DNA of 64,000 bases. It comes from Mobula birostris (taxonomy: Eukaryota). Position 1 is the first letter of the stretch. Every line of letters begins with the position of its first letter. The notes under the pieces were generated by a model, which worked only from the letters and a program-made list of their open reading frames with translations, did no database searches and was not told the DNA's origin. Shown piece by piece: positions 3,240 through 25,735 of this stretch. The translations under genes were made by a program, and so were the position numbers. Location: positions 3,639,665 to 3,703,664 of the forward strand of contig NC_092384.1 of assembly GCF_030028105.1 (NCBI RefSeq), given 5' to 3'.

Positions 3240-6200
3240 GTACATAGGAAAGTACAACAGAGTAAGATGTCATACGGTCACAATGTCGAGCCGATACAGC
3301 TACAACTTAAATTAAGAAAACCCAAAAACGAATCCCTCCATATCTCCCCATCTTCCTCCTAATCATGTGCCTGTCAAGACGATACTTAAAATCTTCAAAT
3401 GTATTTTCTTCTACCGCCATATCTGACACTGCATTAAGGGCATCCACGATTGTCCGGATTAAAAAAAANNNNNNNNNNNNNNNNNNNNNNNNNNNNNNNN
3501 NNNNNNNNNNNNNNNNNNNNNNNNNNNNNNNNNNNNNNNNNNNNNNNNNNNNNNNNNNNNNNNNNNNNNNNNNNNNNNNNNNNNNNNNNNNNNNNNNNNN
3601 NNNNNNTTTGATACGATTCTCTTACATTCGATGCTTGCTATCTGGCGAATCAAGAACTTATCTATCCATCTTTGTCTGAAATGCGCTCAATAACTTGGCC
3701 TCCACGGCCAATCCTGCCAGCGAATTCCACAGATTAACCACCCTCTGACTAAAGTAATTTTTCTGCATCTCTGTTCTAAATGGATGTCCTTCAATCCTGA
3801 AGTCGTACCCTGTTTTCCTAGACTCCCCGACCATGGAAAATAATTTTGCCATATCTAATCTGTGCAGGCCATTGGATATTCAGAAAGTTTCTATGAGACC
3901 CCCCCACTCATTCTCCTGAACTGCAGAGAATGCAGCCCAAGTGCTGCCAGTCGTTCCTAAAGCGTTAACCCTTTTGTTCCTGGAATCATTCTCGTGAAAC
4001 TTCACTGAACACTCTCCAATGTCAGTATATCTTTTTTTTTTTTTTTTAAATAAGTAGTCCAAAACTGCACACAATGCTCCAGGTGTTGTCTCACGGGTGC
4101 CTTATAGAGCCTCGATATCACAACCCTGCTCTTATATTCCATACCTCTAGAAAGCAATGCCAACTTTGCAATTGTCTTCTTCACCAGCGACTAAACCTGA
4201 AGGTTAACATTTAGGGTATCCTGCAAAAAGGACTCCCCAGTCCATTTGCATTTCTGCATTTTGAATTAGTTCCCCAACCATTGTATTTCATTTGTCACTT
4301 CTGTGCCCTTTCCTCTAAACTACCAAAGTCCCTCTGAAAGCTCCTTGTTTCCTCAACACTACCGGCTCCTCCACCTATCTTTGTATCATCGGCAAATTTA
4401 ACCACAAATCCATTAATCGCATAGTGCACATCATTGCCATACATCAGAAAAAACAGCAGTCCCAGCACCGACCCTTGCGGAACTCCAGTGGTAAACGGCA
4501 GACAGCCAGAACAGTATCCCTTTATTCCCAGTCTCTGTTTTCTGCCGATCAGCCAATCCTCCACCCATGCTAGCAACTCTTCTGTAATTCCATGGGCTCT
4601 ATCTTACCAAACAGCCTCATGTGCGGAACCTTGTCAAAGGCCTTCTGAAAATCCAAGTACACTACGTCTACTGCATCTATATTGTCTATGCTGCTTGTAG
4701 TTTCCTCAAAACACTGCAGTATGCTAGTCAGGCAGGAAATTCCTTTCAGGAAATCATGCTGGCTATGACCTATCTTGTAATGTGCCTCCGTTATCTCGTC
4801 CCCAACAATCAATTCCAACAACTTCCCAACCACTAACTGGTCTATAATTTCCTTTATGATGCCACACACCGTTCTTAAATAGCAGAGTAGCTTTCGCAAT
4901 TTTCCAGTGATGCGGTATTTTGCCAGAATGTATCTATTCTTGAAAGATCATTATTAATGACTCTACAATCTCTGCAGCTAGTTCCTTCAGAACCCAAGGG
5001 TGCATTCCAACAGGTCCAGGAGACTTATCCACGCTCAGACACTTAAGCGTTCTGAGCAGATTCTCAGTCGTAATTTTCACTGCACATAATTCACTTCCCT
5101 GAAACTCTTGAATGTCCAGTATACTGCAGAACCTTCCCCTGTGAGAACTGATACAAAATACGTATTCAGTTCCTCTGCCATCTCTGCATGTCTCATTAAA
5201 ATATCTGCAGCGTCATAAATAATTCGACTGATAAAAACAAGCGTCACTTAAGCTTTGTTAACTACAATATCGACCTGAAACACCTCACCTTTATCTGGGT
5301 AAAAGTAGACACATTGTCGGCCCTGTGGATTTATCCACCCAATTTGGCTTAGCATTTCAAGATCACCTCCCTGTTTATCTATTCATGAGCCCATCGTTTG
5401 GCAAGCGAATGCAACGACGCCAACGCCTGTTAAGATGTTTCTTGTCTCCCTTGCTTCCATGTAAAAATGACCACGGTGATTATCATGACGACCAATTTGG
5501 TCCACTGCTCTTATTATATCTGTAGAAATGCTGCTATTCCCCTTCACAATCTCGGATAGCACAAACTGATGTCCTCATGATTTCGCTCTTTAGTGTCTTT
5601 TTCATTTCACACACTAGTCACGTACCACATTTGTTCTTTGCTGTCTGTATATTAGCTGGAATAGAATAGTACAGCACAGTACAGGCCCTTTGGCCCGCAA
5701 TGTTGTGCTAACCCTCAAACCCTGCCTCCCATATAACCCCCTCCCACATTAAATTCCTCCATATACCTGTCTAGTAGTCTCTTAAATTTCACTAATGTAT
5801 CTGCCTCCACTACTGACTCAGGCACTGTATTCCACGCACCAACCACTCTCTGAGTGAAAAAAAAAATCCTCTAATATCCCCCTTGAACTTTGCACCCTTA
5901 CCTTAAAGCCATGTCTTCTTGTATTGAGCAAGTGTGCCCTGGGGAAGAGGCGCTGGCTTTCTACTTTATCTATTCATCTCAATATCTTCTATACCTCTAT
6001 CATGTTTCCTCTTATCCTCCTTCTCTCCAAGGAGTAAAGCCCTAGTGTTCCCTTAATCTCTGATCATAATCTATGCGCTCTGAACCTAGAAGCATCCTGG
6101 TAAATCTCCTCTGTACCCTTTCCAATGCTTCCAAATCCTTTCTATAGTGAGGTGACCAGAACTGACCACAGTACTCCAAGTGTGGGCTAACCAGAGTTTT

Positions 6201-18369: not shown

Positions 18370-21300
18370 GCAGCGGACATGCCGGCTGAAATCTGGAGGA
18401 AAACACACAGAGGAGGCAGAGGGAGACCAAAAAGGCGAGGGAGAGGACTGGATCGAGACAACAGAGGCTTATGGAGAAGAGAAGTTATAAGCCGTGTCTC
18501 CCCTCTCTCATCGTGGGAAATGTGAGATCGCTGGCGAATAAAATTGACGAACTGACGGCGTTTGTCAGGAGTCAGAGAACATTTCGGGGGAGCAGTGCCA
18601 GGTCCTTCACTGAGACGTGGTTGCATGAGGATATACCCAATCAACGCGTTTCCATAGAGGGCTTCCAGACCGTTCGAGCCGACGGGAATTGCACTGAGAG
18701 CGGTCAGTGTAAAGGAGGGGGGGCTTGCGGTTCTGGTAAATAACACATGGTGCAATCCTGGGCATATTACGAACAAGGAACTTGTCTGTAGCCCGGAAAT
18801 TCAACTTTTGGCTGTTGGACTCCGGCCATATTATTTGCCAAGGGAAATCTCGCATGCAATTGTGGTTGTTGTGTACATCCCACCCTCTGCCAACCAGACG
18901 TCGGCGTATAACATCATTTACACCGTCAGACCCAGATTACAAAACCCCCAGCACCCGAGTGCCCTCATTACCATCTCGGGTGACTTCAACCAGGTTATCA
19001 TGGCTTGAACACTGCCCAACTTCACGCAGTATGTGAGCTGTACAACCAGAGGGGAGAGGACTCTGGATTTGACGTACGCTAACGTTAAGGATGCATACAG
19101 CTCCTCTCCCGCTCCTCCCACTGGGAAGGTCAGATCAGAACCTGCTGCATCTAAAACCCAGCTATGTCCCTCTGGTAAAGAGTAAACCTGCAACCTCGAG
19201 GACAGTGAGGAAATGGTCGGAAGAGGCTTCTGAGGCGCTCCAGGATTGTTTTGAGGTGACAGACTGGCAGGCACTCTGTGAGCCACATGGAGAGGATATT
19301 GATGGGCTCACAGAGTGCATCACTGATTACATTAACTTCTGTGTGAACTGCAATGTTCCGACAAGAACTGTCCATTGTTATTCAAATAACAAGCCATGGG
19401 TGACAAAGGGCATTAAGGATATCATGAACGCTAAAAAGAGGGCATTTAGAGATGGAAATAGTGAGGAGCTGAAGGCAATTCAAAGGGACCTGAAAGGCAG
19501 GATCAGGGAGGCGAAAGATAGGTACAGGAGCAAGCTTGAGTGGAAACTGCAGCAGAACAATTTGAGAGAGGTCTGGAGGAGGATGAGGACCATCACTGGG
19601 TTCCGGAAAACTAACAACAGAGGAGCTGAAGGCAGTGTTGACAGGGCCATTGAACTTAACCTGTTCTTTAACAGATTTGACATTGTGGCCCCTGCCCATC
19701 CCCATTATGAGCCACCTGTTGTCGGTCCCCAATCAACACATATTCCTCTCTCCCCTCATACCCCTCCTCACAGTCCCCCACCCTGCTCTCATGACTATAC
19801 CCCTTCCCCGCACGGAACCAACGCAGTGGGCTTCACAGCTGAACCGTTGAGAAGACAGCTGAAACGTCTCAACCCAAACAAAGCTGCAGGACCAGAAGAT
19901 TTCAGTACCAAGCTGCTCAAAGCCTGTGCCCCTCAGGTGTGTGGAGTATTTCGCCATTTATTCAACCTGAGCCTGAGGCTCCGTAGGGTTCCTGTACTGT
20001 GGAAGACGTCCTGCCTCGTCCCTGTGCCGAAGACGCCGCGCCCCAGCGGCCACAATGACTACACACCGGTGATATTGACCTCCCATATCATGAAGACCCT
20101 GGAGAGACTTGTTCTGGAGCTGCTCCGGCCTATGGTCGGGCCACATTTAGATCCCATCCAATTCGCCGACCAGTCCCAACCAGGAGTTGAGGATGCCATC
20201 GTCTACCTGCTGAACCGTGTCTACGCCCACCTGGACAAGGCAGCGAGCACTGTGACGGTCATGTATTTTGACTTCTCCAGTGCGTTCAACACCATCCGTC
20301 CTGCTCTGCTGGGGGAGAAGCTGACAGCGCTGCAGGTGGATGCTTCCCTGGTGTCATGGATTCTTGATTACCTGACAGGCAGACGGTAGTACGTGTGCAT
20401 GCAACACTCTGTGCCCGACAGAGTGATCAGCAGTACTGGGGCTCCACAGCGGATTGTCCTGTCTCCATTTCTCTTCACCATTTACACCTCGGACTTCAAC
20501 TACTGCACAGAGTCTTGTTATCTTCAGAAGTTTTCGGATGAATCTGTCATAGTTGGATGCATCAGCAAGGGAGATGAGGCTGAGTATAAGGCAACGGTAG
20601 GAAACATTGTCACATGGTGTGAGCAAAATTATCTGCAGCCTAATGTGAAAAACAAAAAACTAAGAAGCTGGTGGTAGACCTGAGGAGAGCCAAGGTACCG
20701 GTGACCCCTAATTCCATCCAGGAGGTCCGTGTGAACATGGTGGAGGACTACAAATAGCTGGGGATACGAATTGACAATAAACTGGACAGGTCAAAGAACA
20801 CTGAGGCTGTCTACAAGAACGGTCAGGGCCGTCTCTATTTCTTGAGGAGACTGAGGTCCTTTAACATCTGCCGAAAGATGCTGTGTATTTTCTACGAGTC
20901 TGTGGTGTCTAGTGCGATCATGTTTGCTGTTGGGTGCTGGGGCAGGAGGCTGGGGGTAGCAGACACCAACAGGATCAACAAACTCATTCGTAAGTCCAGT
21001 GATGTTGTGGGGATGGAACTGGACTCGCTCACAGCGGTGTCTGAAAAGAGGATGCTGTCTAAGTTGCATGCCATCTTTGTGAATGTTTCCCATCCACTAC
21101 GTAATGTATTGGGTGGGCACAGGTGTACACTCAGCCAGAGACTCATTCCACCGAGATGCAGCACAGAGCGTCATAGGAAGTCATTCCTGCCTGTGGCCAT
21201 CAAACTTTATAACTCCTCCCTTGGAGGTTCAGACACTCTGAGCCAATAGTCTGGTCCTGGACTTATTTCATAATTTGATGGCATAATTTACATACTACTA

Positions 21301-22052: not shown

Positions 22053-22460
22053 AGCAATGCTGAATCAGTTTTGCGAGTCTGCAAGTGAGGCAGGAAATGC
22101 ACTGCCTACAAAAAGGGATATTAATTATTTATTTACAAACAGTTAAATTCGGCCAAATACTCATGTTCCCCGAGTTACGGACAACACAAAGCTGAATATT
22201 CAACATACATACATACATACATTCAACAAATATATTTAGATAAAGGTGCACAGAGAGCATAATTTCTCAATAATCAATGCTTCATTGCCCAAAACCAAGG
22301 AAAAAGAGAACAAGCCCCTTCCACGTACTACTTTATATACCCGAAATATTTGAAAATGGACACCAGGCAGTTATCTAATGGGAAATAATTATGTTCTTAC
22401 TAAACTAACCAATCAAAACAGAAGTGACTGTTAACATACAGAATAAGGCATGCCCCCACA
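22053..22460 (-). mobile_element. ERV 3' LTR (~408 bp)
   Basis: On the minus strand it starts TGTGGGGGCATG right after the PPT. Contains TATATAAAAG (plus 22330-22340) and AATAAA (~22128). The first ~140 bp align with 25599-25735. Confidence 0.7.
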
Positions 22461-22519
22461 GGTTACCCCACCCCTCGAAAGCTTAGAACGTGATGATCCA
22501 ACACTCAGACTAGTTTCAC

Positions 22520-23530
22520 TCCCAAAAACTCCCAATTAATGTATGCGCCGAACATAAGAGTATAATACTAAGTATTGTAAACCCAAGTCATCTCGTAATA
22601 TACTACAGTAGTCCACCAGCCTCACTTTGTCTCAAAAGTCCAAATATCCCACCCGGAGTGTAGTAGCTAATGAGCTAATGAGCTGGTCTCCCACTTAATC
22701 TAATACACTGCATCTTTCGATACCATCAACTACGTGAATGATATTATCCAATCCGTTAGGAACGCAGATGGTGCATTCTTCGCCAAAAACAATGTAAGTA
22801 CTACCTTCCTTTGACAGCAGGTAATCATAAGCCATTGAAAACAGCTCCCAGGTCAGTCTGGCCGTACCATATTGAGAAATGCTATCATTCATAACATTCT
22901 TCCTTTGAAATAACCCTCTTACACTGTGGGACCAATGGGTGAATCTAGGAAATGCATATCTACTATATTGCCTTCATCTTTTAACAAGTACCCAGCTTCA
23001 CAACACCACTTGCCATAGACACATCTATCCCAGGTTACTGTTTCTGCATACACTTGTATCCACCTTGCAACTTGTACCGTACTCACCATACCACCTGCAC
23101 CAATATTCCCTGTCAGGTGGGGTAATCACTTTAAGAGTCAGAACATTCCAAGTATATAAACGTTAAGTCGGGAAATAACAGCCCTTGAAACACTTACTCC
23201 ATCAAGATTATTAAGGTTCAAGTCCCTGAAGGCTGTTACCAACTCTGGGTTGAGGTTACCTGGAATATATAACCCAGCTCCTCCAAAACAGAAAGCCAAA
23301 AACCGAGAAACCAGACAAATTCCCCCAACTGTGATTTCTTTGTCGTCAAATGGATCGATATCAGCGGCATCCCTTCTGTGGTGTAGCAAGGAATCTTCAG
23401 ACTTGTTGAACAATCTGAGCCGTTGGTCCAGTGTGCAAATTCAAACGCCATTCACAGGAATGTAAACAGGATATCCCACCACAAAATAGCATCCACCACT
23501 TCTGCATCATTCCGTAATGCAGCGAATATA
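22520..23530 (-). pseudogene. ERV env remnant (gamma-type SU/TM)
   Basis: TFL*MAFEFAHWTNGSDCSTSLKIPCYTTEGMPLISIHL (SU N-terminal CxxC-region like). MAYDYLLSKEGSTYIVFGEECTICVPNGLDNI (immunosuppressive domain plus decayed CX6CC). Trp-rich membrane-proximal GWDIW...GWW. Confidence 0.8.
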
Positions 23531-23967
23531 AATACACTTGTTCCTGATTACTCACTGTTTAGCTAGAAAGCAAAAAAACAATAAACTACAAAAATTGCTC
23601 CCTTAGTGTGAAATTCTTCTGAAATGAGGGCATCTCATATTAGAATAAATTTCAATGATCAGTATGAAAATTGAGTCATTTCTAAAACCAATTATATAGA
23701 GAATCAAGTAGCAAAATAACAGATTAAGAAGCAATCAACAATTAAAAGATTTAACAAAAAAAATAGTCCACTAAGAAAAAGAACAAGAAACAAAGTAGCA
23801 GATTATAACACAAATCGCACAGTCCGTGCCTTCCTATGGATATACAGAAACTTAAAACAGACAGTTAATTTCTCACAGAGAAGCAGCACTTATCAGGTAA
23901 CAAATGCTAAGGAAAACAGGATCTGGGCGGTTCTCAACACATTCAGAGTCTCTTAAACGCAGAGTCA

Positions 23968-23971
<4 letters not shown>

Positions 23972-24014
<43 letters not shown>
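23972..24014. repeat. (AC)n microsatellite inside the ERV
   Basis: Seen directly. Confidence 0.98.
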
Positions 24015-24018
<4 letters not shown>

Positions 24019-24249
24019 AACTCACGCGTGTGACCACACCTCACATTTCTCCGCATTCAAACCCTTTACCCTCTATTTACAGGGCAGAGGGATGCATTTC
24101 CAGTGACTTCCTCCTGACAACAATGGGGCGCGAATGTACTAAACACCTTTCCATTCCCACTGCTAGCCAACGTTAGCCGATATCTTTTGAATGGAACCCT
24201 GAATGAAACGTGAGGAATGTGGCAGAGGACGAAGAGCACACTTATCTAC

Positions 24250-25415
24250 AGGGGACTTGAAGAATGACCCTTCCCCCTCAGCAGTCTGTCTTTTTAATGC
24301 TCCTTCCGACAGTATATTCGCGTTGCATAGAGGGTGTGGGTAGTAACCCCATTTACCTCCTTCTCCGGAACCTCAGTTTTAAGCAACGCTAACAACATTT
24401 ATTTACGGAGCATGCGGGTTCCCCCACTCCCCATCTGTTTATTTAACTTCCTTAACTGGCTACGTGCATTCACTCCTATGTACTCTAAACCTTGTAATAA
24501 TTGAAACGCTATATGTACAGGATGACCAACAGCTGGTGTTATTAAAGACAACGCTACTCCCTTATGGAGAAAACGGACTCTTTAACCATGTGACCCACCA
24601 TGCCAGAAGTTAATTCAATATTTTGTGGTGGGATACCACTATCGCGGTATATTTCTGTGATAAGAGCCCACAGAGTACAATTTAGAACCCCGTGTGTTTA
24701 TTAGACAGTGTCCCATTGTTACCTCCTCATCCCACAACCTTAATAGCCACTCGGCCAAATACTCCTATATCTTTTCTGCGCTTGTCTTCTAAACTCCTTA
24801 ATTGCTATATGGAGGTTATCTGAGGTCTGTAGTCTCGAGGGTGTCCATTACACCATCCCTTACACATCCCTGAGTTTCCTACCCCTCTCGCCCCTGAGGT
24901 GAAAAAGCTGCGCATCGATGCCCACCATGGTGGGTGTGGAAACGCGTAATTACTGGTCTGGCTAGTACTCTTTCGGACACACTAGGGAGAGGGCGGTGAT
25001 CACGAGGACGAAACCATGTTGCTCGCTCTCCTTCGTGTTAATCATGCAGCCAGATATCTCCATCTCCCAGCCCACAGAAGGATCACCAACCGTCTCAACA
25101 TGGCTCGAAACTTAACGGGATCTGGTCCCAAAGTGGCCCCTTGAGACGCCACTAAGTTCTTATTTTCATTAGCCAACAGGCTACCTGTATGTTCGTATCG
25201 TCCAATTTCATAGCCCTACTCTGAGCCATCAATAGTGACTCGCTCAGAATAATACAGCGCTGACAGAGATTTTCCAATTCATTCTTAAGACTCGGTATCG
25301 TTTTATAATTATGTCTTACAGTCGCTGCAAAAAACGAGCAGAAAATTCCCAGCGGGCTGTATTTTCTTTTGGGAAAACTCAACGATCTAAGTATAGAAAC
25401 AGTGTGATGTCCCAT
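24250..25415 (-). pseudogene. ERV gag remnant, ERV-L/Fv1-like
   Basis: ORF 25152-25415 starts MG... Minus-strand KEFRRQ/EYLAEWLLRLWDE (~24722-24800) and LLKTEVPEKEVNGVTTHTLY (~24325-24390) resemble ERV-L gag WxLRxWDxG and GVPxxxIDGxxTxxL motifs (recalled, not aligned). Confidence 0.65.
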
Positions 25416-25735
25416 TTAACTCCGTCGGAATCTGACTGCTCTAACAAATCTACCAGCATCCCATAACCCAACAGTCAGTTAGCGAGACTCCAAAGCCTGC
25501 TTTATTAACTGTCCACCCTCGGACCCTACACCTCTCATACTTTCTTTTAAATAACCTCTTCCTGCTCAAAAAAAGCCAAGCATGCTCTCAGCCCCAAATG
25601 TAATGTTCAATCAGTTTTGCAGGTCCGGCAAGTGAGACAGGAAATGCACTGTCTTCGAATAGGCATATTAATCATTAATTTACAAACCGTAAAAAATCGA
25701 CGAAACCTTCATGTTCCACAAGTTACAGACACCAG

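What the first reader, a model, noticed from the sequence alone, without database searches (positions are those of the whole stretch)
22053..25735. Pol-less endogenous retrovirus pairing an ERV-L-like gag with a gamma-type env
Seen: an LTR pair, PPT, PBS-like site, gag motifs (EWLLRLWDE; VPEKEVNGVTTHTL) and env motifs (NGSDC..., DYLLSKEGSTYIVFGEEC). Only ~700 bp without recognisable pol separates gag and env. Established: classical ERV-L usually lacks env, some class III lineages carry gamma-type env, and ERV-L gag gave rise to Fv1. Inference: a non-autonomous derivative of a little-described class III retrovirus lineage in a cartilaginous fish, not flagged by the ORF track. This copy is decayed (stops, frameshifts), so it is not a domesticated gene.
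Basis: partly seen in the sequence, partly recalled or inferred. Interest (0 to 1): 0.7.

Follow-up and report, generated by a model that had tools for sequence, protein, structure and literature searches.

The report
Pol-less retrovirus family with dead envelope
This is one decayed copy of an old, many-copy retroviral fossil family in a fish genome (likely a ray) that lacks its copying enzymes and whose envelope gene has the same two breaks in every copy scored, so it likely spread inside cells by borrowing enzymes from complete relatives, much like the MaLR elements of mammals.

Summary
Window 22053-25735 (minus strand) is LTR-PBS-gag-spacer-env-PPT-LTR with no pol; only about 135 bp of the 5' LTR remain. 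It is one copy of an old family: gag and env searches returned 150 and 149 matches from 150 scored, and the LTR had 1011 first-look candidates. LTR pairs differ by about 19%. The primer site matches tRNA-Ser and target duplications are 5 bp. A gag profile's best hit is an Fv1-like protein of an electric ray, followed by reptile, frog and bird proteins, which points to class III (XtERV-S/ERV-L-like). Decayed gag-pol-env relatives in the same genome have a gamma-type env, so the gag/env pairing is inherited and of a known kind. New here: the env carries the same frameshift and the same gap of about 123 bases through its heptad repeat in 33 of 33 scorable family copies and 0 of 7 outside relatives, while gag shows no clear family-wide break. 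Env was therefore likely dead before the family spread. Best reading: a non-autonomous, MaLR-like element copied in trans by class III helpers. A new member of a known kind, in an under-studied host.

The parts
25599..25735 (-). Remnant (3' ~135 bp) of the 5' LTR, ending in CA; the rest is lost where a CR1-type LINE end abuts
25579..25596 (-). Primer-binding site complementary to tRNA-Ser (14/18 here; 18/18 in copy L006)
24163..25560 (-). Decayed class III-type gag (approximate ends). The start codon seen in sister copies ~40 nt after the LTR is not found here; private gap of ~200 nt near 24700; many stops and frameshifts
23511..24162 (-). Family-specific spacer in place of pol, AT-rich with a (TG)n run at ~23973-24014; no RT, RNase H or integrase homology
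22500..23510 (-). Decayed gamma-type env (approximate ends); degraded SU CXXC site near 23424; private gap of ~75 nt near 22921
22835..22888 (-). Site of the two family-wide env lesions: a frameshift in the stretch after the furin site and a ~123-base gap removing most of heptad repeat 1 and the first half of the immunosuppressive domain
22466..22476 (-). Polypurine tract
22053..22465 (-). Complete 3' LTR (~413 bp)

Best explanation
The element is a decayed copy of a pol-less class III endogenous retrovirus family whose env was likely already dead in its founder, and which likely spread inside germ cells by borrowing reverse transcriptase and integrase from complete class III proviruses. Shown: the shared pol-less layout, LTRs, Ser primer site, PPT, 5-bp target duplications, shared env lesions, a star-like clade, and complete-layout relatives in the genome. 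Inferred: the founder arose from such a relative when pol was replaced by a non-viral spacer; its RNA was co-packaged, reverse-transcribed from tRNA-Ser and integrated by helper enzymes. Whether it supplied its own Gag is open; the support is weak.
For: Copies share one layout, ~4 kb LTR to LTR. Gag-to-env spacing was under 2.5 kb in 34 of 38 hand-paired loci; the 4 larger ones were fetched, three are colinear copies split by insertions and the fourth (L023) matched only at protein level. None of 53 family-labelled loci has class III pol between gag and env, against 24 of 28 other loci with pol hits, most of them picked by an integrase search. The 13 weak hits in family loci are a repeat tail, the env start, or lie outside or inverse to the element (my reading of positions). 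Target duplications: 5-bp identity 0.80 vs 0.22 control and 0.65 vs 0.18 (4 pairs each, overlapping sets), so copies are separate integrations. 23 PBS-like sites match tRNA-Ser genes confirmed by ARAGORN in 4 of 4 loci. Env: 33 of 33 scorable family copies share both lesions, 0 of 7 outside relatives (40 of 81 loci scorable). Gag anchor distances have an in-frame mode in 14 of 15 intervals, one of these by 7 to 6. 27 of 28 family gag rows form one star-like group (SH-aLRT 97) inside a ray class III group (98) with pol-bearing loci (quick tree). Candidate parent/helper lineage: L092 is a decayed LTR-gag-RT-RH-IN-env-LTR element, LTR pair 75-78%, with ~70% DNA identity in patches to the family's gag, env and LTR end. 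Relative L073 has the same kind of Ser PBS and PPT.
Against: No helper with a fully family-type LTR was found; LTR similarity to pol-bearing loci is confined to short 3' patches. Loci were picked by likeness to the window copy, which could favour copies with its env lesions. Selection on gag is barely detectable: third-position excess 1.11 (CI 1.01-1.22) vs env 0.99 (0.88-1.11), but the non-coding spacer control gave 0.81 (0.68-0.97), so noise is as large as the signal. No RT tree was built. One RT motif among pol-bearing relatives reads YVDD (L090). A PDB search ranks MLV-type RT above foamy RT for L068 (I saw no ERV-L entry among the 60 rows shown). The careful tree did not finish and the window copy is not in it.
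Confidence: 0.8

Rival explanations
1. The gag+env element spread by infection, supplying Gag and a working Env and borrowing only Pol (the reading implied by the first reader's title).
For: Env is kept at near full length in most copies, with CX6CC and part of the ISD.
Against: Both env lesions are in 33 of 33 scorable copies. The gap removes a stretch that aligns with the N-terminal heptad of solved MLV and syncytin TM ectodomains. There is no codon-position bias in env. Some copies have lost env altogether (L028, L035).
Confidence: 0.05
2. The RNA was a purely passive passenger: neither gag nor env was used, and a helper supplied all proteins (possibly including Env, i.e. spread by reinfection). 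This differs from the best reading only in the role of Gag and the route.
For: Pairwise divergence among copies (~0.19-0.23) is close to LTR-pair divergence, and the gag codon signal is within control noise. One gag interval splits 7 in-frame to 6 one-base-short.
Against: Gag keeps an ATG context and in-frame spacing in most copies while env does not. The gag N-terminus shows a third-position excess of 1.26 (CI 1.03-1.51).
Confidence: 0.35
3. Copies lost pol independently after insertion, or multiplied by segmental duplication or LINE-mediated retroposition.
For: Local duplicates exist (L016 and L049 have near-identical env pieces). The genome has tandem arrays of other class III copies.
Against: The same spacer recurs genome-wide (45 matches from 40 scored of 183 candidates). 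Copies have two LTRs, different flanks and 5-bp target duplications.
Confidence: 0.03
4. A domesticated gag (Fv1-like restriction factor) or env gene.
For: The best gag hit is annotated Fv1-like in an electric ray.
Against: The window copy has many stops and frameshifts and no start anchor was found. The longest family frames seen are under 300 codons.
Confidence: 0.01

Closest known systems
XtERV-S of Xenopus tropicalis and its deleted copies Xt-S4 to S22 (PMC8278194; passages and section 10 read)
   Same: Class III-type gag without myristoylation glycine or Cys-His box and with a basic N-terminus; tRNA-Ser PBS; 5-bp TSD; short leader; env with CWIC near the SU N-terminus and a gamma-type TM; YIDD in RT of some related complete elements; deleted derivatives multiply.
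   Different: XtERV-S is young, intact and has a dUTPase (none seen in the three pol frames of L068 scanned). Its 19 deleted copies usually keep the PBS, leader, 5' gag and PPT. This family keeps full-length gag and a dead env, has a non-viral spacer, is old and far more numerous.
ERVL-MaLR (MLT1, MST, THE1) of eutherian mammals (PMC11359688; 12 passages read)
   Same: Abundant LTR elements with an ERV-L-related gag and no pol, suggested to have spread inside cells.
   Different: MaLRs are env-less and described from eutherians. This family retains an env relic, primes with tRNA-Ser and arose from a ray class III lineage, so it is a parallel case, not a member.
ERV-L / Fv1 (PMC8922424 passages; PMC8278194 Table 2 passage)
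   Same: The gag profile's best hit is annotated Fv1-like. The nearest Atlas model of homologue P0003 is an Fv1 cluster (TM 0.36/0.50).
   Different: ERV-L is env-less, has pol with dUTPase and a Leu primer (the primer is recalled).
AnERV8 and clade Huo (bioRxiv 10.1101/2024.07.05.601823 passages; PMC6001957 passages)
   Same: ERV-L-like pol with a covalently linked, gamma-type env in frogs; clade Huo is reported from all major vertebrate lineages.
   Different: Those are complete elements. No pol-less family or ray lineage is mentioned in the passages I saw.

Membership tests
Class III ERV (ERV-L/ERV-S/XtERV-S group) | RT clusters with class III | tested here: inconclusive
   The element has no RT and no RT tree was built. 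Relatives read YIDD (L072, L080), YMDD (L068) in translations printed and YVDD (L090). RT homologues are frog, lizard, bird and bat proteins at 43-55%.
Class III ERV (ERV-L/ERV-S/XtERV-S group) | ERV-L/Fv1-related gag | tested here: met
   66 hits to profile A3, best E 1.6e-23; the best is named Fv1-like of Narcine bancroftii, most others are uncharacterised reptile, frog and bird proteins; Atlas structure row 1 is an Fv1 cluster.
Class III ERV (ERV-L/ERV-S/XtERV-S group) | No myristoylation glycine, no Cys-His box in gag | tested here: met
   Gag starts and C-terminal frames printed for 25 and 28 copies, read by eye.
Class III ERV (ERV-L/ERV-S/XtERV-S group) | 5-bp target-site duplication | tested here: met
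   0.80 vs 0.22 and 0.65 vs 0.18 at 5 bp, lower at 4 and 6 bp; 4 pairs per call, 5 distinct loci.
XtERV-S/ERV-S-like | tRNA-Ser primer-binding site | tested here: met
ERV-L proper | No env | tested here: not met
   Env relic in the family; TLV_coat E 8e-11 in relative L069.
ERV-L proper | dUTPase in pol | tested here: inconclusive
   No dUTPase hit in the 7 natural pol frames of relatives scanned, which do not cover pol fully.
Gamma-type env | CXXC in SU and CX6CC in TM | tested here: met
   CRIC in L007, CWIC in relatives, CX6CC in many copies; both degraded in the window copy.
Gamma-type env | Intact heptad repeat 1 and ISD | tested here: not met
   Gap of ~123 bases in 33 of 33 scorable family copies; present in 7 of 7 outside relatives.
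ERVL-MaLR | pol-less with ERV-L-related gag | tested here: met
ERVL-MaLR | env-less | tested here: not met
   An env relic is present.
ERVL-MaLR | Sequence kinship to MLT/MST/THE LTRs and internal ORF | not testable with these tools
   No repeat library (Dfam/Repbase) was available.

The most novel reading that the evidence does not exclude
An independent origin of a MaLR-like element in rays, caught half-way: a class III retrovirus lost pol, broke env and kept a working gag that it contributed in cis, then became a family of about a thousand LTRs. Later derivatives shed env entirely (L028, L035). The genome would record the stepwise path from enveloped class III virus to gag-only parasite that in mammals is seen only at its end point.
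Probability: 0.35. Interest if true: 0.55.

Novelty: new member of a known kind. Interest (0 to 1): 0.38.

Why it matters
It gives an example outside mammals of a class III retrovirus turning into an abundant non-autonomous element, with complete-layout relatives, integrase-remnant forms, the pol-less/dead-env family and env-less copies side by side in one genome. That makes it possible to test whether loss of env comes before proliferation and whether gag is kept in cis. It also places an XtERV-S-like lineage in a cartilaginous fish. This locus itself is inert decayed sequence.

Tried and rejected
Pfam on the window frames and on 13 natural frames of family copies found no retroviral family; the best TLV_coat score for a family copy was E 0.026, below cut-off. 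A word-indexed search with one gag frame found nothing among longer proteins. The gag profile had no real PDB hit. The Atlas could not read the family sequence, so its results are for homologue P0003. The rest of the 5' LTR is not in the window. The spacer search returned only 66-84% matches, several at known family copies, and no host source. One reference frame (gagC_L010) was out of frame by my error and is disregarded. No RNA holder was listed for the locus, which says nothing about expression. Absolute dating was rejected: the shark rate assumed in PMC4422223 (first 10,000 of 14,366 characters read) would give about 430 million years for K2P 0.19, which I consider implausible. A by-eye check of RT hits against gag hits was dropped because it missed known pol-bearing loci. 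Paper searches showed no description of this family; subscription papers, supplements, Dfam and Repbase were not seen, so it may already be catalogued there. PMC3358877 (env-less superspreaders) was not held; I saw only its citation. Earlier-findings look-ups by sequence and by words were blank.

Full report
Observation. The region reads on the minus strand as LTR remnant (25735-25599), primer site (25596-25579), gag (~25560-24163), spacer, env (~23510-22500), PPT (22476-22466) and a whole 3' LTR (22465-22053). The two repeats are 79.7% identical over 133 nt. The 5' one is cut by a CR1-type LINE end and its remainder is not in the window. The copy alone gives no Pfam hit.

A family, not a single wreck. 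A DNA search of the 4.0-Gb genome gave 132 matching pieces from 40 scored of 1390 candidates, at about 70% identity. Env and gag pieces gave 149 and 150 matches from 150 scored, and the LTR had 1011 first-look candidates. Fetched copies are colinear, about 4 kb from LTR to LTR. In 38 gag/env pairs that I matched by hand, 34 lie under 2.5 kb apart (median 1.36 kb); of the four longer ones, three are colinear copies split by insertions and one matched only at protein level. None of 53 family-labelled loci holds class III pol between gag and env. The spacer recurs across the genome, so pol was lost once, before amplification. Target duplications are 5 bp (five distinct loci, a small sample). The primer site matches genomic tRNA-Ser(CGA/TGA) genes.

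Age. LTR pairs differ by K2P 0.08-0.24, median 0.19 (21 of 24 pairs with at least 120 aligned sites), close to the pairwise divergence among copies, as expected for an old burst. A second organism label holds the orthologous insertion: one contig spans the flank/3' LTR joint, and internal contigs differ at 57 of ~1610 and 41 of ~1090 letters (one sample, one study). The insertion is thus roughly five times older than that split (inference).

Gag. A profile of nine natural gag frames found 66 proteins among 1.84 billion. The best (E 1.6e-23) is named Fv1-like in the electric ray Narcine bancroftii; of the other 19 looked up, most are uncharacterised snake, turtle, frog and bird proteins. The Atlas model of homologue P0003 is nearest to an Fv1 cluster, at a modest TM-score. 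Sister copies start gag about 40 nt after the LTR with a basic N-terminus, no glycine at position 2 and no Cys-His box, as described for XtERV-S (PMC8278194, passages). Anchor spacing in gag has an in-frame mode in 14 of 15 intervals, one narrowly, so the founder's gag was probably open. Evidence that it was under selection is weak.

Env. Relative L069 matches TLV_coat (E 8e-11), syncytin and MLV TM structures and a Hypanus sabinus env at 82%, so the env is gamma-type and the host is likely a stingray-like fish. Against that protein, family copies lack a stretch of about 41 residues covering most of heptad repeat 1 and half of the immunosuppressive domain. Measured between anchors, 33 of 33 scorable family copies, the window included, have both this gap and a one-base frameshift just upstream; 7 of 7 scorable outside relatives have neither (40 of 81 loci scorable). 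Shared lesions in dispersed insertions mean the founder's env was likely already dead. Selecting loci by likeness to the window could inflate this count.

Relatives with pol. An integrase remnant in locus L032 led to 150 matches. Fetched loci include decayed gag-pol-env elements (L068, L072, L073, L080, L082; RT, RNase H and rve hits) and forms that keep only part of integrase (L032, L066, L074). A second search from L036 gave an older set. L092 has the whole layout, LTRs 75-78% alike, and patchy ~70% DNA identity to the family's gag, env and LTR end. In a quick gag tree, 27 of 28 family rows form one star-like group (97) within a ray group (98) that holds the pol-bearing loci; reptile, frog and bird proteins lie outside (unfinished careful search, midpoint root, window copy too short to include).

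Mechanism. Shown: cis signals kept, pol absent, env broken family-wide, separate integrations, complete-layout relatives present. Inferred: transcripts from the LTR were packaged, primed with tRNA-Ser and integrated by enzymes of a complete class III provirus, most likely the L092/L031/L036 lineage. With its own env dead, spread was likely within germ cells, though use of a helper's Env is not excluded. Whether the element contributed Gag is open.

Comparison. Class III elements with a gamma-type env are described in frogs (PMC8278194; bioRxiv 10.1101/2024.07.05.601823), and clade Huo is reported from all major vertebrate lineages (PMC6001957, PMC8922424; passages). Pol-less derivatives with an ERV-L-related gag are known as mammalian MaLRs (PMC11359688; passages), and deleted multiplying copies are known for XtERV-S. 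The elephant-shark survey found snakehead- and epsilon-like lineages and required pol plus env, so it would have missed this family (PMC4422223, first part read; PMC4977317, passages). It works like a MaLR but is not one, and it is not ERV-L proper. Nine paper searches showed no description of it; repeat libraries were not available.

Verdict. A real, old, non-autonomous class III family with a founder-dead env: a new member of a known kind. Interest 0.38.

Noticed in passing
L035 (G000:C8:181582000-181591500) and L028 (G000:C7:166453000-166462900): Two-LTR copies with gag only, no pol and no env, i.e. fully MaLR-like; L035's gag groups with the pol-bearing L031/L036 rather than with the family.
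   Followed up: partly
G000:C17 (about 1-32 Mb), C6:35.5-36.3 Mb, C24:46.6-47.8 Mb: Clusters of near-identical class III RT or integrase hits; the C6 set recurs at steps of about 24 kb, suggesting tandem or segmental duplication of a unit that holds a provirus.
   Followed up: no
P0001 / P0067 (Narcine bancroftii, XP_069772250.1, XP_069792282.1): Annotated 342- and 540-residue class III gag proteins in an electric ray, one named Fv1-like; candidates for intact or co-opted gag genes.
   Followed up: no
P0095 (Hypanus sabinus): The predicted protein joins a gag C-terminus directly to the second half of env, either a spliced gene model or another pol-deleted element.
   Followed up: no
P0013 cluster: A gag that groups with bird proteins is labelled Klebsiella pneumoniae in NCBI, probably host contamination of those assemblies.
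   Followed up: no
P0049, P0053: Gag-like stretches fused to RING/synoviolin-like domains, possibly chimeric gene models.
   Followed up: no
window 19073-21039 and throughout: The window is dense in LINE relics (CR1 and Rex/L2-like RT fragments), including a 438-codon open frame at 19073-20386; the ERV's left flank also looks like a CR1 RT fragment; one N run at 3469-3606.
   Followed up: partly
L016 and L049 (G000:C8:116.46 and 116.58 Mb): Two family copies 120 kb apart with near-identical env pieces, likely a local duplication.
   Followed up: no
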